Shown: in pieces, positions 183 through 37,956 of the stretch
Position numbering within the stretch: position 1 is the first letter of the stretch
Layout of the letters: every line of letters starts with the position of its first letter
UHGV virus genome: UHGV-0192057
DNA: 37,956 nt
From: a virus
Reading direction: 5' to 3' (one strand)
Notes under the pieces: generated by a model
The model's database searches: none
Seen by the model: only the letters and a program-made list of their open reading frames with translations
Told to the model about the DNA's origin: nothing
Translations under genes and position numbers: made by a program

Positions 183-199
183 CGCCACCCGAAGGTGGC
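183..199. repeat. attL core candidate (17-bp direct repeat, hairpin GCCACC-CGAA-GGTGGC)
   Basis: Exact copy of the 17-mer at 37143-37159; sits about 90 bp outside the int stop codon. Confidence 0.6.
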
Positions 200-289: not shown

Positions 290-1321
290 TTATGGGCAAA
301 ATCTGGACAACTCCGCAACCGGATTGAACCTTACCGCGTCCTGGAGATAATCAGGTGCAAAGTGCGCATAGGTCATTGTTTGCTGAATTGTGCTGTGCCC
401 TAAAATACGCTGAAGGGTAATAATGTTCCCTCCATTTATCATGAAATGAGTTGCGAATGTGTGCCGTAAAACATGCACAGACTGACCGACTGGTAAATCA
501 GGCCGCACAGTCCTTATTGCACTTCTGACTATCGCATAACTGGGGTTCATTAATCTTCCCGTCGCTTTGACTTTAATCAGAGATTCAAGATCTTTAGCTA
601 TAGGAATAACCCGCCGCGATCCATTCTTTGTCTCCATGAAAATAACCTTCCCACCAATTATGTGTTCACCTTTAATATTGGCAACTTCACCCCAGCGCCC
701 GCCTGTAGCCAGGCTTAACAATACAGCCTTAAGATTATCGCCAGATAAAAGTGCGGTTAGTCTGGGAATATCATCATGTGCAAGATAAGCCATTTCCGGC
801 TGATTAATTGTTAGCTTGCGTATCTCGTGAAACGGGTTATCACCCACAAACTCTTCAACATCAATCAGCTTTTCAAAGAAACCGCTCATCATTGCACAAT
901 AACGATTTACCGTTGACTGCTTAATTCCGCGATTCATTAATTCAAGGCGATATCTGATAATATTTTTTCGGGTTAAGTGGTCACTTCTGTTAATACCAAG
1001 CTCTTGCATATCACGAAGAACCGCTTCAATTCTGACCCGATTCATCGCGCCATAACGATGATTCTTACCGTGGTACACCCACCACAGTTCCAGAAGATCG
1101 CTTAACGCTTTACGTTCAATAGGTTTTTCGACCCAGTCCTTATCGTGATAATGCGTCAGAACATGGCGTTCATACATCGCCGCTTCACCACGGGTAGGAA
1201 ATCGCCGCCGAAATCTTCTTCCTTCAGATCCAGCAGGCCGCACGTCCACACAGTATTTGCCATCAGCGAGCTTCTTAATCGACATAAGGAAGCCCCCCAA
1301 TGAAAACATCATCTTGATCAC
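290..1321 (-). CDS. int: Tyrosine integrase, P2 Int family
   Basis: 343-aa ORF; C-terminal region with HxxR...Y-type recombinase signature (VLRHTFATHF...TMTYAHF); sits next to the att repeat and upstream of the C repressor as in P2. Confidence 0.93.
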   Translation of the reverse strand: MIKMMFSLGGFLMSIKKLADGKYCVDVRPAGSEGRRFRRRFPTRGEAAMYERHVLTHYHDKDWVEKPIERKALSDLLELWWVYHGKNHRYGAMNRVRIEAVLRDMQELGINRSDHLTRKNIIRYRLELMNRGIKQSTVNRYCAMMSGFFEKLIDVEEFVGDNPFHEIRKLTINQPEMAYLAHDDIPRLTALLSGDNLKAVLLSLATGGRWGEVANIKGEHIIGGKVIFMETKNGSRRVIPIAKDLESLIKVKATGRLMNPSYAIVRSAIRTVRPDLPVGQSVHVLRHTFATHFMINGGNIITLQRILGHSTIQQTMTYAHFAPDYLQDAVRFNPVAELSRFCP

Positions 1322-1351: not shown

Positions 1352-1645
1352 TTAACCAGTCTTCTTGCCGGAGTGGGGTGATTCCGATTCGCTTCGCCCA
1401 ATGTGTGCGAGAGCCGGTACCACCTGCCCGACCTTTGGTTCGACCTCATCGAACAAAAACCAGTCGCGGTATTTAGAAAATCTCGGGTGCTTAAAAAGCT
1501 TGATAGTGATCTCAAGACCAGGAAGGTTACGACCATACTCATAACTGGTCAGAGCAGAGTAAGAAATTCCAATCATATCAGCGAACTCCCGTTGAGTGAG
1601 ATCTTCAGATTTACGCATGACGCGAATTTTTTGAGGAATGTCCAT
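1352..1645 (-). CDS. Immunity repressor, P2 C-like
   Basis: 97 aa from the internal ATG at 1645 (MDIPQKIRVMRKSEDLTQREFADMIGISY...SPHSGKKTG); HTH; resembles P2 C from memory; divergent from cox. Confidence 0.8.
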   Translation of the reverse strand: MDIPQKIRVMRKSEDLTQREFADMIGISYSALTSYEYGRNLPGLEITIKLFKHPRFSKYRDWFLFDEVEPKVGQVVPALAHIGRSESESPHSGKKTG

Positions 1646-1658
1646 TTGACAAACTCCT

Positions 1659-1688
1659 ACATATGTGAGATTAATACCACATATGAAC
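1659..1688. promoter_or_regulatory. Candidate C operator / early promoter region (direct repeats ACATATG x2)
   Basis: acatatgtga at 1659-1668 and acatatgaac at 1679-1688 flank an AT-rich TTAATA element between divergent C and cox; P2-type repressors bind direct repeats around the early promoter. Confidence 0.4.
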
Positions 1689-1759: not shown

Positions 1760-2185
1760 ATGCAAGAAGTCACTCAAAACGCGCCTGAATCGCCTGCCGA
1801 AACACAGTGCGATCAGTTGACAGATGCGCCAGAAACCGCACACCAAAAGACCGGGCGCAAAGCCCCTGAACGCCAAGAAATCAGGCTTTCACAAAACCCT
1901 TCTCATCTCCTGTCAAAAGAAGGGTTTGCGATGTATATCGGCAAGACCGTTGACGCCATCGTGAGCATGGCAAAAGCAGGGAAATTACCCGCTGTGTACA
2001 TGGCGGACCCTCTCAAGCCTGGCGGAAACGCCGAACTTTACATCAACCGGAAAGCATGGGATGAAGCCTGCGATCGACTCACTGAAAACGCACCGCAAGA
2101 ATGGCACGAATGGGAAAACCGACTTTTTTTATTTAAGCCAGCAGCTGGTTCACGGAATAAACGTATCAGTAAAAAAGCAGCTTAA
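1760..2185 (+). CDS. cox: Cox-like excisionase/transcriptional regulator (C-terminally extended)
   Basis: ATG at 1760 preceded by GGAGGA; first gene of the early operon opposite C; HTH-like segment (MYIGKTVDAIVSMAKAGKLPAV). 141 aa versus about 91 for P2 Cox. Confidence 0.6.
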   Translation: MQEVTQNAPESPAETQCDQLTDAPETAHQKTGRKAPERQEIRLSQNPSHLLSKEGFAMYIGKTVDAIVSMAKAGKLPAVYMADPLKPGGNAELYINRKAWDEACDRLTENAPQEWHEWENRLFLFKPAAGSRNKRISKKAA

Positions 2186-2266
2186 TATCAAACACACAGC
2201 GAAATCCACAACAGGAGATTTCGCCGTAAATAATCTAATCGTTGGTGTTATGCGGGGGCGCAACAA

Positions 2267-2704
2267 TCAACCAAGAAGACTTTTGAAAGCAAAGGATAAC
2301 CCAGTAGTAAGAGCGGATGATGCGGTGCTTTTTATCGCGTCCATTGAGCCACTCTTGGCTGCATCAACAAGCTTGTCGCCAAATGATTGTTTAAGTGACT
2401 CTGGATCAAGCTTAAGTAATTCAAGACCTTTGGCCGTGAGAACCGCATCAGAAAAGTAATGCGGAGGAGAAGATTTAGCGGATACATAACCAGCATCAAC
2501 AAGCCATGCGATGGAGTCACGGCGAAGCTCAAGAGCTTCAACTAGTTGCCTCCTGGAGGATCGGTCTTCTTCAAAAGTCAGCTCTGAAACACCGGTTAAG
2601 GCACAAATATCAATAGTTACTTTGCGGGGAAAAGTTTCATAAAGAAACGCAAAAGTTTTACCAACTGTTTCATTAAAAACATCAAGATTTGAAGGTATTG
2701 ACAT
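2267..2704 (-). CDS. Hypothetical protein (antisense cargo gene in the early operon)
   Basis: 145-aa ORF from ATG at 2704 with GGAG 6 nt upstream; fills the gap between cox and the next plus-strand gene on the opposite strand. No recognisable motif. Confidence 0.55.
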   Translation of the reverse strand: MSIPSNLDVFNETVGKTFAFLYETFPRKVTIDICALTGVSELTFEEDRSSRRQLVEALELRRDSIAWLVDAGYVSAKSSPPHYFSDAVLTAKGLELLKLDPESLKQSFGDKLVDAAKSGSMDAIKSTASSALTTGLSFAFKSLLG

Positions 2705-2897
2705 GACTGACTCCACTCAAACAAAAGACTTATACAGCGATTTACGCTTCATCATCATACAACAGCAATCAGGCAGGATGGATCCAACACGTGCAAGCAA
2801 GGCCTGGAAAGAAGCCCTTACCGATCAGGGGATCGATGTAATTAGCGAAGTCATGGCTGAAGTGATTTTTAGGCTGACAAGAGACGAATCACTGTAA
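2703..2897 (+). CDS. Hypothetical small protein (64 aa)
   Basis: ORF with GAAGG upstream; its start codon overlaps head-to-head with the start of the minus-strand gene 2267-2704. Confidence 0.35.
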   Translation: MTDSTQTKDLYSDLRFIIIQQQSGRMDPTRASKAWKEALTDQGIDVISEVMAEVIFRLTRDESL

Positions 2898-2922
2898 TCA
2901 TCGCATAAGGACCGAGTGAAGA

Positions 2923-3261
2923 ATGAAGCAACAACGAAATGCACGCATCAATAACAACACCGAACGCCACGTTGCACGCCAGCACTTCCGTAAAAATAGT
3001 GCGACCGTAACCACTGAAATCCACGCAACACCAGACGGTCACCCGGTAAAACAAACCGGCAAACACACCTGGGCGATTGGCGACACTGCCATCGTTATTC
3101 ACAAAAGTTTTCGCAGTCCTGTTACTGGCAGATTTAATTTCACCCTGACTCGCGGGGATGATTACTTCGGACAGGATTTCACATTTTTTGAAGCCTTAAG
3201 AACGGCAGACAGATTAATCAACGGCCTGTGTTTTCAATATCCGGGAAGTAAGTACCGATAA
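2923..3261 (+). CDS. Hypothetical early-operon protein (112 aa)
   Basis: ORF in the co-directional early gene block; no motif recognised. Confidence 0.5.
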   Translation: MKQQRNARINNNTERHVARQHFRKNSATVTTEIHATPDGHPVKQTGKHTWAIGDTAIVIHKSFRSPVTGRFNFTLTRGDDYFGQDFTFFEALRTADRLINGLCFQYPGSKYR

Positions 3262-4086: not shown

Positions 4087-4667
4087 TGAACCATCTCATG
4101 ATTGACACCGAAACACTGGGTAACGGACCGGACGCAGCCATATTCGCGATTGGGGCGGTGTTTTTCGACCCGTTCACCGGAAAGCTGGGCAAGCAGTTTG
4201 AGAAACTCATCGACCCGGTGGATTCAGAACGCAACGGCGGAACCGTCAATGCAGCCACCGCTGTATGGTGGGCCGGACAATCCGTGGAGGCCAGATCCTG
4301 CCTGCGCAACGCAGAGGGAACAGAGCTTGCGGCAGTAACCGAATTTCTGGCGTTCATTTCACGCAATATGCATGACGAAAGCACGGGCAATTCACTGACC
4401 ATATGGTGTAAGGGCGCATCCTTCGATTTCCCGATCCTGAAATCCGCCATAACACGCACAGCCGGAGAAAAAAGCATCCCCTGGCGCTACTGGAACGAGC
4501 GCTGTATGCGCCCGCTTATCGCCATGGCTGAATCAACTGGATGGAAAATGCCAGGCAGATCAGGAAAAGAGGCCATTGCTCACACCGCGCTGGGCGACGC
4601 CATTTACCAGGCAAAGGTCGTGTCAGAAATCTGGCAGCGCTTCACAACACCATTCCTGAACATATGA
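4086..4667 (+). CDS. DnaQ-like 3'-5' exonuclease (DEDD family)
   Basis: N-terminal Exo I-like motif MIDTETLG and later H...D (HTALGDAIYQ); 193 aa; start overlaps the previous stop. Confidence 0.7.
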   Translation: MNHLMIDTETLGNGPDAAIFAIGAVFFDPFTGKLGKQFEKLIDPVDSERNGGTVNAATAVWWAGQSVEARSCLRNAEGTELAAVTEFLAFISRNMHDESTGNSLTIWCKGASFDFPILKSAITRTAGEKSIPWRYWNERCMRPLIAMAESTGWKMPGRSGKEAIAHTALGDAIYQAKVVSEIWQRFTTPFLNI

Positions 4668-4900
4668 GGTGAAGCCATGGTCGCCATCCTGAATGTGTGT
4701 TGCTGCCCCCCCCTGAACGTGGAAAGAAAAGCCCGCGCATCGCTGCGTTTATTCCGCGACGGCGTGCGGAATTTTTCACGCATAAAACCCCACGACTACC
4801 TGGTAATAAGAATCGGTTTTCGCTGGCGATTGCTGAGCAAAAACAACGGGGCGTCATGGGATTTATTAACGCACGAAACCTATAACAAAGAGGCCGCGTT

Positions 4901-5881
4901 ATGAGCAAAGAACTGTTATCCGGTACGCCACTGAAATGGGTGGGCGGAAAAAGCCGCATCATGAACACACTGAAGGCGCATCTGCCAGAAGCAGACTGCC
5001 TGGTTGAGCCGTTTGTGGGTGGCGCATCGGTATTCATGAACACCAGTTACAAGCGTTACATCCTGGGTGATTCCAATGGTGCGCTGATTAATTTCTACCG
5101 GCAAGCCAGGGACAACACCGACAGCCTGATCGACGAGGCGAAAACCCTGTTCCTGAACCACAACAACAGGGGTGACTATCTCATCATTCGCGAAACCTTT
5201 AACGCAGAGAATCATGCCTTCCTGAACAGCAGAACGGGAATAAGCGACCGCCGTGAACTGCGACTGGCCGCCATGTTTTTGTACCTGAACCGACACAGCT
5301 TTAACGGTTTGTTCCGCGTGAACGGAAAAGGCGATTTTAACGTGCCTTTCGGCTGCTACCGCAAGCCCTACTTCCCTGAGCGGGAAATCCGCGCATTTGC
5401 AGACAAGGCAAACAGCACCCGAACGCTGCTTATCCACGCAGATTTTAAGGATACGCTGAACTCTGCCAGTCACCTGTTCGGCATGGGCAACACGCTTTGC
5501 GTGTACTGCGATCCCCCTTACCTGCGATTCAGTGGCCGGGACAATTTCACCGCCTACGGAAAACCATTCGATGAAGACGAGCACGTTCGTCTGAGGGCAG
5601 CGCTTGACCGCCTTTCACAGGAAACGGGCGGCATGACCAGCATCACCATCTCCAATTCCGACACACCGGAAACACGACGCATTTATCGGGGTTACCGGAT
5701 GAACTGCATACAGGCACCACGAAGCGTTGGCGCAAGAACCCGGGAATCAGCACCGGAGGTTATCGCCACCCTGAGACAGTGCGACGCCTGCGGTCACCAT
5801 GGCGGTGGCTACTGCCCGGACTGCGGACCTGTAACGGGAGATGCAACTTACAGCGTGATGTTTACCCCTGCCAGTACGTGA
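4901..5881 (+). CDS. dam: DNA adenine methyltransferase, Dam family (probable GATC N6-adenine MTase)
   Basis: Motifs PLKWVGGK, EPFVGGASVF (SAM binding), FLYLNRHSFNGLFRVN and catalytic DPPY (VYCDPPY); matches E. coli Dam from memory across the N-terminal two-thirds. Confidence 0.88.
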   Translation: MSKELLSGTPLKWVGGKSRIMNTLKAHLPEADCLVEPFVGGASVFMNTSYKRYILGDSNGALINFYRQARDNTDSLIDEAKTLFLNHNNRGDYLIIRETFNAENHAFLNSRTGISDRRELRLAAMFLYLNRHSFNGLFRVNGKGDFNVPFGCYRKPYFPEREIRAFADKANSTRTLLIHADFKDTLNSASHLFGMGNTLCVYCDPPYLRFSGRDNFTAYGKPFDEDEHVRLRAALDRLSQETGGMTSITISNSDTPETRRIYRGYRMNCIQAPRSVGARTRESAPEVIATLRQCDACGHHGGGYCPDCGPVTGDATYSVMFTPAST

Positions 5882-6368: not shown

Positions 6369-6721
6369 TTTATATCGCCGGTCCAATGACCGGATACAAA
6401 GATCACAACAGAACGGCGTTTTTCACAGAGGCGATGAGGCTCGCGGCAGACGGGCACGTTGTGCTGAACCCTGCCACGTTGCCTGACGGATTAAGCCAGC
6501 AGCAGCACATGAGCATTTGTATTCCGATGCTCATGTGTGCCGATGTCATTTACTTGCTGGAAGGCTGGGAGGATTCAGCTGGCGCGCGGGCGGAGTACGC
6601 AATGGCACTCAAGCTGAACATAGACGTGTCATTACCGCCTGTCAGGGAAGACGGTAAAAGCATCACGCAGCCGGGAGTCGATCAGACGCCGCACAACCAG
6701 CAGATTAACCTTTCGGAGTAA
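6359..6721 (+). CDS. DUF4406-like / nucleoside 2-deoxyribosyltransferase-like protein
   Basis: N-terminal IYIAGPMTG motif typical of that fold; 120 aa. Confidence 0.55.
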   Translation: MAVIYIAGPMTGYKDHNRTAFFTEAMRLAADGHVVLNPATLPDGLSQQQHMSICIPMLMCADVIYLLEGWEDSAGARAEYAMALKLNIDVSLPPVREDGKSITQPGVDQTPHNQQINLSE

Positions 6722-7149
6722 CGCAAATGCTCGCTGGCAGACAGACCAACAGATGCGCTCGCTTTGTTTTTTGCGGGCCTGACAAACGCCTTCATGGATG
6801 CGCTGTTCGTTTCTTCCAGATACAGAATGCGCTCAATCAGGCGTTCAGTGCTCATGAAATCCCTTTGCGTAATCAGACGAAGGTAGCTCTGTTTCTGCCA
6901 GCACGCCAGTTCGGCGACGAATTCACACTTGCTGCAAAACCAGGAAAAAACAAAAAACGCCAGCCCCCAAAGGCTCATCAGGACGGGAAAACCAACCAGA
7001 AGAAAGGACAATACCGCAGCAATCAGCGCCCCGGCGCGCAACATGGCAGCGGCTTTATTGCTGAGTATGAAAACCATCTCTTCCAGCCAATAGCTGTACC
7101 ACAGATGAAAAAAAATCTTCTTGTCTGCTTGCTCCATAGCAACAGGCAT
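6682..7149 (-). CDS. Hypothetical membrane protein (antisense cargo gene)
   Basis: 155 aa from ATG at 7149 with GGAGG 6 nt upstream; hydrophobic hairpin AGALIAAVLSFLLVGFPVLMSLWGLAFFVFSWF; its 3' end overlaps the end of the DUF4406 gene. Confidence 0.6.
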   Translation of the reverse strand: MPVAMEQADKKIFFHLWYSYWLEEMVFILSNKAAAMLRAGALIAAVLSFLLVGFPVLMSLWGLAFFVFSWFCSKCEFVAELACWQKQSYLRLITQRDFMSTERLIERILYLEETNSASMKAFVRPAKNKASASVGLSASEHLRYSERLICWLCGV

Positions 7150-7535
7150 AAACAACCTCCATTGTTAATAAACGCCGCTATCCCTCGGCGCATTCCATTT
7201 TTGCGCCGCGATTATACATACTTCAGCACGCAACACAAAAACCGCTTGCCAGCGCTCGTCGTGTCAGGTTACATTTCCGCTGCACCTCATAAAACGGGTG
7301 CCGGGTTTCGCAGCCTGCTGACAACCAAAGCGCACAACCGCGCCAGCGGTTTTTTTGTGCGTACTGTATTGCCACGTCTTTTTCGCGTCAGAATTATGGC
7401 GGGGCGTACGGGGCCGACTTCGGTCGGGCCGGGTTCTTTGGTTGCCGGTACTGCGAACCTCGTACACCTCGCCACCCACAGTTTCGCAGCTCTGGATGGT
7501 GAGTTTTCAAAACTTACAACCAAAGAGGCCACACC

Positions 7536-7757
7536 ATGGCAAACCGCAAGCAACAGCGCGCCCGCGCTGAGCGTCTTCACATCCGCAGCGAAATCAACCG
7601 CAGACTCCATCGGGCTGCATCTGTCGCCTTTATCATGCAGTCAAACGTATTACACCGACTTAACGACGGTATCGCTGCCGGGTATTACGCGGCAGTCTTC
7701 AGCTATCTCGCCGAAGATCTGGCAGAACTACAAAGCCTCATCAACCAGCACCGATAA
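7536..7757 (+). CDS. Hypothetical small basic protein (73 aa)
   Basis: ATG with AGAGG upstream; Arg-rich N-terminus; first plus-strand ORF after the structured gap. Confidence 0.4.
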   Translation: MANRKQQRARAERLHIRSEINRRLHRAASVAFIMQSNVLHRLNDGIAAGYYAAVFSYLAEDLAELQSLINQHR

Positions 7758-7825
7758 ACCACATCCTGAAGCCATCCCGCACCCGTGCGCGGGAGGCTTC
7801 CGCACGTCTGTTACCGGAGGTTCTC

Positions 7826-8242
7826 ATGAAGAGCGTTAAGGGACTTTCAGATATTCAGGACTTTTTTAACTGGATGTGGGCGGTGGATCCCCTGCTGGCT
7901 TCCCGCCTGAACAACTGGCACGACTACTACCGCCGCGCCTGTAAACAGGCCGCCCGCAGCATCACCACATACGGGGATTTCTCCTTCACCGTTGACGGTC
8001 GTTACCGCGTGGACGTGAAAGGTGACGGTGATGGCTTTGGTTTATTTCACATCAACGGCACCGACAGTACCGCCATCAGCTGGTCATCGTCAGAGATGGC
8101 ACTGGTTCTGGAAATGACAACCCACAGCGTGGCCGTGAAAGGCATATACACCGCAGAAGACTTTATCGGTGAATACCAGCGCCTTCTCGTGCTGTACCGC
8201 GCGGCGTTTCAGGAGGTCACTGGCGGGGAGTACGACGCATGA
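7826..8242 (+). CDS. Hypothetical protein upstream of A (138 aa)
   Basis: ORF whose stop overlaps the A start. Confidence 0.55.
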   Translation: MKSVKGLSDIQDFFNWMWAVDPLLASRLNNWHDYYRRACKQAARSITTYGDFSFTVDGRYRVDVKGDGDGFGLFHINGTDSTAISWSSSEMALVLEMTTHSVAVKGIYTAEDFIGEYQRLLVLYRAAFQEVTGGEYDA

Positions 8243-11201: not shown

Positions 11202-11372
11202 ATGAACGACATCAGGAGGATCAGCGACAAAGAGCTTACGAAAATGATTGAGTCGGCGCAGCAGCTGCTTTCACGACGAAATCCGGTTGTGGAAGAAACA
11301 TGGTGGGAAAATTTACTGACAGCACTGACCGAACTCCGCGAACGCCGGAACAACGAAGGAGCCGCCAAATGA
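11202..11372 (+). CDS. Hypothetical small protein (56 aa)
   Basis: ATG with AAGGAG 7 nt upstream (MNDIRRISDKELTKMIESAQQLL...). Confidence 0.45.
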   Translation: MNDIRRISDKELTKMIESAQQLLSRRNPVVEETWWENLLTALTELRERRNNEGAAK

Positions 11373-11707
11373 AGACACCCAGAATGACCGGAAAGGTAAT
11401 CATTTTACGCTACCTGGAAACGCACGCACGCTTCAGCGCACCAGAGCTGGTTGAAAAACTGGGCGTGAAAAGGACCATCATTAATCAGGCCGCCGGAAAG
11501 ATGGTACGCGAAGGGCTGCTGGTTGTGGACGGGTACACGGACAAGATAACGCATTACCGGAAGCCAACGGAAAAGGAACGACTGGAGCTGGCGCAACGGG
11601 CAGAATGGCAACAAGAGCCGTCCGTAATTGAAGCCTGCAAGCGCAGCGAAATCATGAAGAGAATTCTGTTTATCTACGGCGCTGGCGAAGAGCTGCCAGT
11701 CATCTAA
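11369..11707 (+). CDS. Putative winged-helix DNA-binding protein (112 aa)
   Basis: ATG with AAGGAG upstream and ATGA overlap; helix-turn-helix-like segment SAPELVEKLGVKRTIINQAAGKMVREGLL. Confidence 0.5.
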   Translation: MKTPRMTGKVIILRYLETHARFSAPELVEKLGVKRTIINQAAGKMVREGLLVVDGYTDKITHYRKPTEKERLELAQRAEWQQEPSVIEACKRSEIMKRILFIYGAGEELPVI

Positions 11708-11739
11708 CCCCAACAATAAAACCAACACGGGAGACAAAT

Positions 11740-12057
11740 ATGCCAACACAGGTTGCAACAGAGGGACGACTGGCAGCAGACCCGAACACAAGGAGAACAA
11801 CCAAAGGAACCAACGTCACAACGGCACAACTGGCGGTATCACTACCCTGCCATGGCGCAGAACAGCCAACCACAATGTGGCTTTACCTTATTTCATTCGG
11901 GAAGCAGCACGAAGAACTGGCAAAACACAGAAAAGGCGATCTGATTCTGGTGCACGGAAACTTGCAGGTAAACAGGTATCAGGACAAGTACGGGCAACAG
12001 AAAGAGGGCTGGCAGCTGCTGATGCAAAGCATTATCAGCTCAAGAACCGGGCGATGA
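11740..12057 (+). CDS. SSB-like OB-fold protein, short (105 aa, no acidic C-terminal tail)
   Basis: N-terminus EGRLAADPNTRRTTKGTNVTTAQLAVS resembles the SSB beta1-beta2 region; lacks the C-terminal DDDIPF-type tail. Confidence 0.5.
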   Translation: MPTQVATEGRLAADPNTRRTTKGTNVTTAQLAVSLPCHGAEQPTTMWLYLISFGKQHEELAKHRKGDLILVHGNLQVNRYQDKYGQQKEGWQLLMQSIISSRTGR

Positions 12058-12067
12058 CTTCACGCAT

Positions 12068-12091
12068 GTTACCCTCAGCAGCGAGGGTAAC
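12068..12091. terminator. Hairpin between convergent SSB-like gene and hotspot membrane gene
   Basis: gttaccctc-agcagc-gagggtaac 9-bp stem, followed by a T-run on the plus strand. Confidence 0.45.
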
Positions 12092-12106
12092 ACAGGATTT
12101 CTTTTT

Positions 12107-12751
12107 TCAGTCAAACCGAAATCGGCCGCTTGTCGCGTATGCATAGGTGACCACCGCACCCAGCGCATTCACACGCTTCTTCACATAAATCACATTACCA
12201 TCCTGATAGTCACCGTATGGGTAGCAAATAAAGATTGTTTTTTGCAAATCAGGATCATCAACAAATGCCCCTGAACAACTTTTTGAGCTACCGCGACTGT
12301 ACTCATAGGGAGCGGAATAGAATGAATCTTCACCCGGAAGAAAATATATCAGCGTAACCAGGAGGGTAAACAGAATCATCCAGGTAAGAAGGCACATACC
12401 CGAAAAAAACTTAAGATACGATGTAACCCCGGTAAATTTAGACCGATCAACCAGGTTCTTTTTCAACAGGCACAGTGAGACAAAAACCGAAAGCACCACA
12501 GACACTGAAACAAGGCAGTTTGTCGTGAACGAATAAAGGTAGGTAATTCTGTAAACATCGTTTCGCCACCAAATAAAAAGAAAAATCCCCCCCAAAACAG
12601 AAAGCGTGACAAAAGTTAAATAAGGATATGAGTAATTTTTCACAGTTCTCACCCGGCAATACACCACTGATTCAGACAGATGATTATCATCACCACCCAC
12701 CCCCAAAAATCGCAAGATAAAAAATGCACAAAAGCGCACGAAATTGCACAA
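12107..12751 (-). CDS. Hypothetical 3-TM membrane protein in the AT-rich tin/old-equivalent hotspot (start uncertain)
   Basis: 214-codon open frame in conspicuously AT-rich DNA; three hydrophobic segments and a roughly 85-aa C-terminal soluble domain. The track start is TTG; in-frame ATGs occur only near codon 123. Confidence 0.5.
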   Translation of the reverse strand: MCNFVRFCAFFILRFLGVGGDDNHLSESVVYCRVRTVKNYSYPYLTFVTLSVLGGIFLFIWWRNDVYRITYLYSFTTNCLVSVSVVLSVFVSLCLLKKNLVDRSKFTGVTSYLKFFSGMCLLTWMILFTLLVTLIYFLPGEDSFYSAPYEYSRGSSKSCSGAFVDDPDLQKTIFICYPYGDYQDGNVIYVKKRVNALGAVVTYAYATSGRFRFD

Positions 12752-37142: not shown

Positions 37143-37159
37143 GCGCCACCCGAAGGTGG
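37143..37159. repeat. attR core candidate (17-bp direct repeat / terminator hairpin)
   Basis: Identical to 183-199; followed by gtgcttttattatt, so the right copy retains a U-tract. Confidence 0.6.
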
Positions 37160-37172
37160 CGTGCTTTTATTA

Positions 37173-37516: not shown

Positions 37517-37956
<440 letters not shown>

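What the first reader, a model, noticed from the sequence alone, without database searches (positions are those of the whole stretch)
2186..2900. Reverse-oriented cargo gene between cox and the early genes, with head-to-head overlapping start codons
The 145-aa minus-strand gene (2267-2704) exactly fills the cox-to-next-gene gap on the opposite strand, and its ATG (2702-2704) overlaps the ATG of a plus-strand 64-aa ORF (2703-2705), both with plausible RBSs. Early transcription from Pe would run antisense through it, so it is probably expressed mainly in the lysogen and subject to transcriptional interference. Function unknown.
Basis: partly seen in the sequence, partly recalled or inferred. Interest (0 to 1): 0.5.

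Follow-up and report, generated by a model that had tools for sequence, protein, structure and literature searches.

The report
Head-to-head two-gene prophage cassette
The reverse-oriented prophage gene and the small gene facing it, whose start codons overlap, form a conserved but uncharacterised two-gene cassette found in many temperate phages, laid out so that probably only one of the two proteins is made at a time.

Summary
In this E. coli P2-like prophage a 145-aa gene (A, 2267-2704, minus strand) and a 64-aa gene (B, 2703-2897, plus strand) start back to back on the tetranucleotide CATG (2702-2705). Each gene's ribosome-binding site lies inside the first codons of the other.

This is not chance, and A is not a lone cargo gene. 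A belongs to a large unnamed phage family (1483 cluster representatives, PHROG 2266, no Pfam family). Of 92 distinct relatives examined, 46 have the same 2-nt start-codon overlap with a divergent 63-85 aa ORF. All but two of those ORFs are clearly homologous to B.

The pair sits at many different phage sites. A is convergent with its 3' neighbour in 45 of 46 cases, and B usually runs with the surrounding lytic operon. Close E. coli relatives carry A+B, B alone with the first 12 codons of A, or an unrelated pair.

A is an acidic winged-helix protein with a low-confidence C-terminal tail. B is a three-helix bundle. Neither matches any known defence, toxin-antitoxin or regulator family.

Best reading: a moron-like cassette with mutually exclusive expression, A in the lysogen and B in lytic growth, possibly as A's antagonist. 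The architecture is shown; expression timing and function are inferred.

The parts
2267..2704 (-). Gene A: 145-aa acidic winged-helix protein with a C-terminal tail of about 45 aa (PHROG 2266, no Pfam family)
2703..2897 (+). Gene B: 64-aa three-helix protein, conserved divergent partner of A
   Evidence: ORF. Partner alignment with the motif Q..G.MD..RA+.YW..L....LAEAL. Partner profile hits. AF2 pLDDT 89, three helices. dN/dS 0.21.
2702..2705 (.). CATG: the two start codons overlapping by 2 nt, head to head
   Evidence: Sequence. The same tetranucleotide with a partner ORF occurs in 46 of 92 distinct relatives.
2711..2714 (-). Shine-Dalgarno of A (GGAG, 6-nt spacer), encoded inside codons 3-4 of B
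   Evidence: Sequence. Consensus cGGAG-N7-CATG across 44 loci.
2691..2695 (+). Shine-Dalgarno of B (GAAGG, 7-nt spacer), encoded inside codons 4-5 of A
   Evidence: Sequence. In relatives the matching CTCC on the A strand is conserved only where a partner is present.
2670..2704 (-). First 12 codons of A. These are kept, because they carry B's translation start region, in related prophages that have lost the rest of A
   Evidence: Alignment with L002 and L003. Remnant ORF MESVMSTPSNPDALNDPGLF in L002.
2195..2228 (-). Terminator-like hairpin just after A's stop codon (13-pair stem, then a U-rich tail). On the plus strand it is weaker and has no U tract
1760..2185 (+). Context: cox (left border of the slot). 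Early transcription leaving cox runs antisense through A and then sense through B
   Evidence: PF10743 E 1.1e-27. Gene order.
2923..3261 (+). Context: DUF4761 early gene (right border of the slot)
   Evidence: Conserved border in L001-L004.

Best explanation
Bases 2267-2897 are one mobile two-gene cassette of temperate phages, not a single cargo gene next to an early gene.

Shown:
- A and B are both real, conserved protein genes.
- They are divergent, with start codons overlapping on CATG.
- Each ribosome-binding site is written into the other gene's first codons.
- The pair is inherited and relocated as a unit.
- A is embedded antisense to the phage's lytic operon, while B usually points the same way as that operon.

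Inferred mechanism:
- Because the start codons overlap, each mRNA must begin inside the other gene. The two translation-initiation regions are therefore exact complements.
- In the lysogen the early promoter Pe is repressed, and A would be made from its own promoter and stopped at the hairpin after its stop codon.
- On induction or infection, transcription from Pe runs through cox, antisense across all of A, and on into B and the replication genes.
- That would silence A by polymerase collision and by RNA duplex formation over its start region, while producing B.
- The cassette would thus act as a very compact 'excludon': A in lysogeny, B in lytic growth.

Inferred function (weaker):
- A is an acidic winged-helix protein, so it more likely binds a protein than DNA. 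It would serve the lysogen as an accessory function, with exclusion of other phages as the leading guess.
- B would be a lytic-phase antagonist of A. That would also explain why phages keep B alone.
For: Both genes are real:
- Family sizes, purifying selection and PGAP annotation.

Conserved overlap:
- 46 of 92 distinct relatives have it, spread over five sequence clusters at below about 38% identity.
- Further partners start within 1-18 nt.
- The logo is cGGAG-N7-CATG-N5-CTCC, and the CTCC is conserved only when a partner is present.

Co-inheritance:
- Pairwise identities of A and B correlate, r = 0.83.

Mobility as a unit. The pair is found at:
- cox/early genes (window; L120)
- repressor/early genes in Yersinia
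- after gpA in the P2 tin/old slot
- tail tube/tail chaperone
- large terminase/portal, holin/muramidase, and near gpU and gpD

Orientation:
- The 3' neighbour of A is on the opposite strand in 45 of 46 loci.

Replaceable unit:
- The same slot holds A+B, B only, or an unrelated head-to-head pair.

Precedents:
- P2 tin and old are reverse-oriented lysogenic-conversion genes, and Pe/Pc are face-to-face promoters.
- Genes antisense to lytic genes are typical prophage accessory loci, and the P22 sas antisense RNA switches sieB translation (PMC7067206).
- Excludon concept (PMC12288877).

A as a protein binder rather than a DNA binder:
- Winged-helix fold, with median pI 4.6 and median charge -6.5 across the family.
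Against: - No promoter for A could be located. Consensus scans are at chance level and show no positional enrichment across loci.
- Expression timing is untested.
- A occurs without B in roughly a third or more of loci, including the same terminase/gpW site. B therefore cannot be an obligatory antidote.
- In one clade A lies in sense orientation after gpU inside a tail operon.
- The flank beyond B is co-directional in only 27 of 46 loci, by crude ORF calling.
- There is no direct evidence that A and B interact, because no complex prediction was possible.
- Neither gene matches any defence model in PADLOC.
- An acidic winged helix does not strictly exclude DNA binding.
Confidence: 0.45

Rival explanations
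1. A is a DNA-binding winged-helix repressor that controls the divergent B gene and the early genes behind it. B would act as its Cro/Cox-like or anti-repressor counterpart. The cassette would then be a small local genetic switch, not an accessory function with an antagonist.
For: Winged-helix fold with MarR-type best matches. Weak HTH_45 and DUF4364 hits in 2 of 56 members. One phage annotation calls the homolog a 'putative transcriptional regulator'. In Yersinia the pair sits directly beside the repressor and integrase genes, where a switch would be. Divergent regulator-target pairs are common.
Against: The winged-helix domain is acidic across the family: median pI 4.6, median charge -6.5. 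No regulator family reaches its Pfam or NCBIfam cut-off. No extended palindrome or operator-like repeat surrounds the CATG. B is read through from the upstream operon anyway. The cassette sits in late, lysis and packaging operons, where a local repressor has no obvious role. A occurs without B and B without A.
Confidence: 0.2
2. The overlap is incidental. A is an ordinary single-gene moron and B an unrelated small lytic gene. They stay together only through tight linkage, and the shared CATG has no regulatory meaning.
For: Both genes exist on their own: A-only loci and B-only prophages. Function is unknown for both. The compactness of phage genomes favours overlaps.
Against: Linkage alone does not explain why the same pair, with the same 2-nt overlap, appears at at least seven unrelated phage sites and in hosts from Enterobacterales to Pseudomonas, with one copy in a Phycisphaerae MAG. 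The exact offset and both embedded ribosome-binding sites persist down to about 25-30% protein identity. Divergent overlaps are otherwise extremely rare.
Confidence: 0.15
3. A and B are a toxin-antitoxin-like or abortive-infection pair. A would be a toxin, perhaps membrane-active through its small-residue-rich C-terminal tail, and B its antitoxin.
For: Two small adjacent genes carried on mobile elements. B-only 'orphan antitoxin' prophages outnumber A+B in E. coli: 20 versus 3 genomes. The A tail (residues 101-145) is amphipathic, rich in G/A/S/T and of low model confidence.
Against: The genes are divergent, not co-transcribed. A occurs without B in many loci, which a constitutive toxin would not tolerate. 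No match to any toxin, antitoxin or defence profile. The tail is too polar for a transmembrane helix: mean hydropathy stays below 1.
Confidence: 0.08

Closest known systems
P2 tin and old (reverse-oriented lysogenic-conversion genes of P2-like phages)
   Same: Non-essential accessory genes of P2-like prophages, oriented against the early operon. Distant copies of this cassette occupy that very gpA-to-portal slot.
   Different: No sequence or domain relation. tin and old have no divergent partner with an overlapping start codon. Their anti-phage phenotype is proven, whereas here no phenotype is known. In the window the cassette sits between cox and the early genes, not at the right end of the genome.
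P22/lambda sieB-esc with the sas antisense RNA
   Same: A lysogen-phase exclusion gene whose translation is switched by an antisense RNA (PMC7067206). That sas derives from early lytic transcription is from my own knowledge. The system also has a phage-encoded antagonist (Esc) that protects the phage itself. This is the same logic as proposed here.
   Different: Esc is an in-frame internal product of sieB, not a divergent gene. No homology was tested or is expected: SieB is a membrane protein (my own knowledge). The antisense control there is experimentally shown; here it is inferred from geometry.
Excludons (divergent genes with overlapping 5' transcripts; Listeria and others)
   Same: Divergent neighbours whose transcripts must overlap, which predicts mutually exclusive expression through transcriptional interference and RNase III (PMC12288877).
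   Different: Described excludons overlap in long untranslated regions. Here the coding starts themselves overlap and each ribosome-binding site lies in the other gene's codons, which is an extreme and conserved form. No transcript data exist for this locus.
Face-to-face promoters of the P2 (Pe/Pc) and 186 (pR/pL) switches
   Same: Converging promoters with overlapping transcripts decide between lysogenic and lytic gene sets in the same phage group (P2 features).
   Different: Those promoters lie in an intergenic region between C and cox and are controlled by known DNA-binding repressors. Here there is no intergenic region, and no operator was found.
MarR/PadR-type winged-helix proteins
   Different: No family-level sequence match, an acidic surface charge, and no MarR-style dimerisation helices. 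Instead there is a C-terminal tail of about 45 residues modelled with low confidence.

Membership tests
Prophage moron / lysogenic-conversion locus | Accessory: present or absent between otherwise collinear phages | tested here: met
   The same cox/DUF4761 slot holds A+B (L001), B only (L002, L003) or an unrelated pair (L004).
Prophage moron / lysogenic-conversion locus | Own transcription unit (promoter and terminator), often antisense to lytic genes | tested here: inconclusive
   Antisense orientation in 45 of 46 loci and a terminator-like hairpin after A. No promoter could be placed.
Prophage moron / lysogenic-conversion locus | Expressed from the repressed prophage and confers a host phenotype | not testable with these tools
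   Needs RNA-seq of lysogens and phenotype assays.
Excludon | Divergent neighbouring genes whose transcripts overlap | tested here: met
   Divergence and the 2-nt coding overlap are shown. Transcript overlap follows from the geometry if both genes are expressed, but was not observed directly.
Excludon | Mutually exclusive expression through interference or RNase III | not testable with these tools
   Needs strand-specific transcriptomics or reporter fusions, with and without rnc.
MarR/PadR-like winged-helix transcription regulators | Winged-helix fold | tested here: met
MarR/PadR-like winged-helix transcription regulators | Sequence membership (profile above the curated cut-off) | tested here: not met
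   No Pfam or NCBIfam hit for the window protein. Only 2 of 56 relatives give sub-threshold HTH_45 or DUF4364 hits.
MarR/PadR-like winged-helix transcription regulators | Basic DNA-binding surface and an operator near the regulated promoter | tested here: not met
   Domain median pI 4.6, median charge -6.5. No palindrome or repeat around the CATG.
Type II toxin-antitoxin | Co-transcribed bicistronic operon | tested here: not met
   The genes are divergent.
Type II toxin-antitoxin | Toxin never found without its antitoxin; homology to known families | tested here: not met
   A-only loci exist. No profile hits.
Known anti-phage defence systems (PADLOC-DB 2.0) | Profile match to a catalogued defence protein | tested here: not met
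   No hit for A, B or the next gene. One spurious Cmr5 hit among 56 relatives. Catalogues newer than 2023 were not available.
T7 gp5.5 / gp5.7 (similarity suggested by the phage Midge annotation of a homolog) | Detectable profile similarity | tested here: not met
   hhalign probability 0.1% and 0.5%, against a single-sequence template.
P22/lambda SieB-Esc | Homology to SieB; in-frame internal Esc product | not tested
   Considered only as a functional analogy. A contains no internal methionine until residue 121, so an Esc-like in-frame product from an ATG is unlikely.

The most novel reading that the evidence does not exclude
The cassette is a previously undescribed self-contained defence/counter-defence unit. 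A would be a lysogen-phase anti-phage (exclusion or abortive) effector acting through a protein-binding winged helix. B would be its cognate inhibitor, made only in the phage's own lytic cycle. The conserved CATG overlap, with reciprocally embedded ribosome-binding sites, would be a hard-wired either/or translation switch. Phages carrying B alone would then be escape variants holding an anti-defence gene.
Probability: 0.2. Interest if true: 0.8.

Novelty: new variant of a known kind. Interest (0 to 1): 0.6.

Why it matters
Divergent genes with overlapping start codons are almost absent from bacterial genomes: E. coli K-12 has 2 among 4,131 adjacent pairs. Here one such overlap is preserved, to the nucleotide, across dozens of distinct phage lineages and several bacterial orders, together with both embedded ribosome-binding sites.

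That makes it a clean natural test case for whether head-to-head coding overlap can act as a built-in either/or switch between lysogenic and lytic gene products.

It also defines two sizeable protein families with no name or function. One copy type is present in thousands of Salmonella assemblies, and the pair repeatedly lands in phage accessory and defence hotspots. The families are therefore reasonable candidates for a new exclusion/anti-exclusion pair.

If the overlap proves to have no effect on expression, the finding reduces to an ordinary two-gene moron of unknown function.

Tried and rejected
- Megablast of the region against sequenced phages found nothing. tblastn found only 11-12 phage records, none characterised.
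- Pfam, NCBIfam and PADLOC gave no family for A or B. PHROGs gave only 'unknown function' families.
- PDB sequence search gave only repeat-protein artefacts and a weak AspA hit, and nothing for B.
- Fold search of B returned only generic helical bundles. The viral structure library gave no match at E <= 0.001 for A. The afdb50 library was unavailable.
- The T7 gp5.5/5.7 similarity stated in the Midge annotation was not reproduced. B is not related to P2 Orf78.
- Promoter hunting was inconclusive. The consensus scan was at chance level. The PWM scan across 46 loci showed no shared position. The -10-like hexamer count showed no enrichment upstream of either start. A TATAA-like block aligned in enterobacterial copies is explained by Leu-Tyr codons of B.
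- The putative C-repressor operator ACATATG occurs only in the C/cox intergenic region, so direct C control of the cassette is not indicated.
- The broad alignment A5 was too diverse for the search for related loci, so A2 was used instead.
- A literature search by accession and PHROG number found nothing. The P2 hotspot papers do not mention this pair.
- A is rare on plasmids, 2 of 72,556 records, so this is not a plasmid module.

Full report
WHAT IS THERE

The window is a complete P2-like prophage of E. coli. Its left end reads:
- integrase, 290-1321, minus strand
- an HTH repressor of the C type, 1352-1645, minus strand
- Cox, 1760-2185, plus strand (PF10743, E 1.1e-27)
- a minus-strand ORF, 2267-2704
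- a plus-strand run of early genes: a 64-aa ORF (2703-2897), DUF4761, DUF4754, a 3'-5' exonuclease, a ParE-like protein, Dam methylase and, further on, the replication protein gpA

Plus-strand bases 2702-2705 read CATG, so the ATG of the 145-aa minus gene (here A) and the ATG of the 64-aa plus gene (here B) share two bases. A has GGAG six bases upstream, and B has GAAGG seven bases upstream. Each of these ribosome-binding sites lies inside codons 3-5 of the other gene.

A is separated from cox by 81 bases. These contain a 13-pair hairpin followed by a U-rich stretch on A's strand. Read on the other strand, the hairpin is weaker and lacks a U tract. NCBI's annotation of a 98%-identical prophage calls both genes with these same starts.

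BOTH GENES ARE REAL AND BELONG TO FAMILIES

A matches PHROG 2266 (unknown function) over its whole length, with no Pfam, NCBIfam or PADLOC family. A profile built from first hits finds 1483 cluster representatives at E <= 0.001. Nearly all are stand-alone proteins of 135-160 residues.

B has no family in any library. A profile of partner ORFs collected from related loci retrieves 132 proteins, all 'hypothetical'. Against a 76%-identical relative, dN/dS is 0.23 for A and 0.21 for B.

THE OVERLAP IS CONSERVED, AND THE SMALL ORF IS THE PARTNER

I fetched 109 loci encoding relatives of A from viral and genome collections and located the start of each homolog with a family profile. Results for 92 distinct homologs:
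- 54 begin with CATG.
- In 46 of these, the opposite-strand ATG opens an ORF of 63-85 residues.
- All but two of the 46 ORFs align with the window's B and with each other. The shared core is Q..G.MD..RA[KR].YW..L....LAEAL.
- A profile of them also detects partners that were not used to build it. Their starts lie 1, 2, 5, 15 or 18 bases from A's start.

The arrangement is found in five sequence clusters of A that share under about 38% identity. It also holds in the 25-29%-identical copies in Klebsiella phage ST147-VIM1phi7.1, Salmonella phage FSL SP-004 and Escherichia phage Midge.

The DNA consensus around the junction is cGGAG-N7-CATG-N5-CTCC. The CTCC is the complement of B's ribosome-binding site and also the Ser5 codon of A. 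It is conserved only in loci that have a partner, which is independent evidence that B is translated from that ATG.

Pairwise identities of A and B across loci correlate, r = 0.83. For comparison, E. coli K-12 has 2 divergent overlaps among 4,131 adjacent gene pairs (PMC4161906).

WHERE THE CASSETTE SITS

It is not tied to the cox slot. Sites found:
- between cox-side genes and the early operon (window; Serratia)
- between the repressor and the early operon in a Yersinia 186-like prophage
- after gpA, next to the portal gene, which is the P2 tin/old hotspot; that exact B protein is indexed in more than 1500 blocks of Salmonella assemblies
- between tail tube and tail chaperone in Pseudomonas
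- between large terminase and gpW/portal, between holin and muramidase, and next to gpU or gpD

In 45 of 46 partner-bearing loci, the gene next to A's 3' end is on the opposite strand, often within 0-4 bases. A is therefore embedded antisense. In every context with called or annotated genes, B points the same way as the surrounding lytic genes. By crude ORF calling, the flank beyond B is co-directional in 27 of 46 loci.

Within E. coli, the slot between cox and DUF4761 holds one of three things:
- A+B
- B alone, preceded by the first 12 codons of A, which are exactly the stretch that carries B's ribosome-binding site
- an unrelated 151-aa/87-aa pair that is also head to head

Among 5426 complete E. 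coli genomes, A is in 3 and B in 20. Conversely, many Pseudomonas loci have A without B at the same terminase/gpW site, and one clade has A in sense orientation after gpU. The two genes are therefore strongly but not obligatorily associated.

WHAT THE PROTEINS LOOK LIKE

A:
- Residues 1-100 fold with high confidence into a winged helix.
- The domain is acidic throughout the family: median pI 4.6, median charge -6.5; the window copy has pI 4.9 and charge -4.4. This argues for protein binding rather than DNA binding.
- Residues 101-145 are small-residue-rich, amphipathic, weakly basic and modelled with low confidence. They are too polar for a membrane span.

B:
- It is a confident three-helix bundle, pLDDT 89, with only generic structural neighbours.
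- Some orthologues carry Cys-rich C-termini.

The similarity to T7 gp5.5/5.7 quoted in the Midge record is not reproduced. B is unrelated to P2 Orf78.

HOW IT MOST LIKELY WORKS

Shown: a mobile two-gene cassette with reciprocally embedded translation starts. A is antisense to the host phage's lytic operon, and B is usually sense.

Inferred from the geometry: each mRNA must start inside the other gene, so the two initiation regions are perfect complements and transcription is face to face. In this prophage, transcription from the early promoter has to cross A in antisense before it reaches B.

The simplest consequence is mutually exclusive expression. A would be made in the repressed prophage and B during lytic growth. 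Interference and RNA pairing would shut A off, as described for excludons (PMC12288877), for face-to-face promoters in P2 and for the sas/sieB switch of P22 (PMC7067206).

The functional reading is a weaker inference. It holds that A is a lysogen-phase accessory protein, possibly excluding other phages, and that B is its lytic-phase antagonist. Supporting points:
- the moron-like distribution
- the hotspot locations
- the retention of B alone, consistent with a counter-measure

Points against:
- A-only loci and the sense-oriented clade
- no match in the 2023 defence catalogue
- no interaction data

No promoter for A could be assigned. The repressor's likely operator (ACATATG twice, at 1659 and 1679) is absent from the cassette.

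RIVALS

- A local repressor/anti-repressor switch. For: the fold and the Yersinia position. Against: the acidic domain, no operator, and the late-operon sites.
- An incidental overlap of unrelated genes. Against: the same pair with the same offset at many sites and at low identity.
- A toxin-antitoxin-like pair. Against: divergent transcription and A-only loci.

VERDICT

It misses that the 64-aa ORF is part of the same conserved unit.

Relative to known biology, this is a new variant of a known kind. It is a prophage accessory locus of the tin/old or sieB type, but with an unusual, precisely conserved head-to-head coding overlap and two unnamed protein families. I found no publication on it. 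Function remains unproven, and the proposed switch is directly testable.

Noticed in passing
L004:2083-2802 (E. coli G1/2; same slot as window 2186-2922): An unrelated pair occupies the identical cox/DUF4761 slot. It consists of a 151-aa minus-strand gene (PHROG 28512, unknown function) and an 87-aa plus-strand gene, with start codons back to back (CATATG). A head-to-head layout may be a recurring feature of cassettes at this site.
   Followed up: partly
window 2634-2690: Direct repeat GTTTCAT[A/T]AA... at 2634 and 2667. The second copy coincides with the left edge of homology to prophages that keep B but have lost A, so it may mark the deletion or recombination point.
   Followed up: no
window 4677-4904 (+): A 75-aa ParE-family toxin-like gene (named so in the 98%-identical record) sits in the early operon directly before the Dam methylase gene (4901-5881). 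No obvious antitoxin gene is next to it.
   Followed up: no
window 1760-2185 (+): Cox is 141 aa here. The Pfam Cox domain covers only residues 40-120, leaving an acidic N-terminal extension of about 40 residues that P2 Cox (91 aa) lacks.
   Followed up: no
window 1659-1685: Two copies of ACATATG, 20 bp apart, lie between the repressor gene and cox. They resemble the paired direct-repeat operators of P2 C. The only other copy in the window is at 4660.
   Followed up: partly
window 11300-12751: In the classical gpA-to-portal hotspot there is a 135-aa MarR_2-like gene (11300-11707, plus strand) and a 214-aa minus-strand ORF with no family (12107-12751). This may be further cargo.
   Followed up: no
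window 6682-7155 (-): A 157-aa ORF runs antisense to, and almost wholly inside, a 370-aa Ash-like plus-strand gene (6727-7839). Relatives are annotated with a reverse-strand hypothetical gene at about this place. Which strand is coding here is unresolved.
   Followed up: no
window 183-199 and 37144-37160: A 17-bp exact repeat, CGCCACCCGAAGGTGGC, which is itself a hairpin, lies near both ends of the prophage. A TamB gene fragment at 37517-37885 marks host DNA on the right. The repeat could be attachment-site cores or just two terminators.
   Followed up: no
L118:4781-5248 (Yersinia prophage): A second reverse-oriented gene (155 aa, PHROG 6315, unknown function) lies in the same early operon, between the A/B cassette and cox.
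   Followed up: no
partner proteins of L021, L031, L035, L079, L086, L100: Several B orthologues end in Cys-rich tails (for example CQCHCCRHC, CRCCRSC, CNCCR) that the window's B lacks. This could be metal binding or another add-on function.
   Followed up: no
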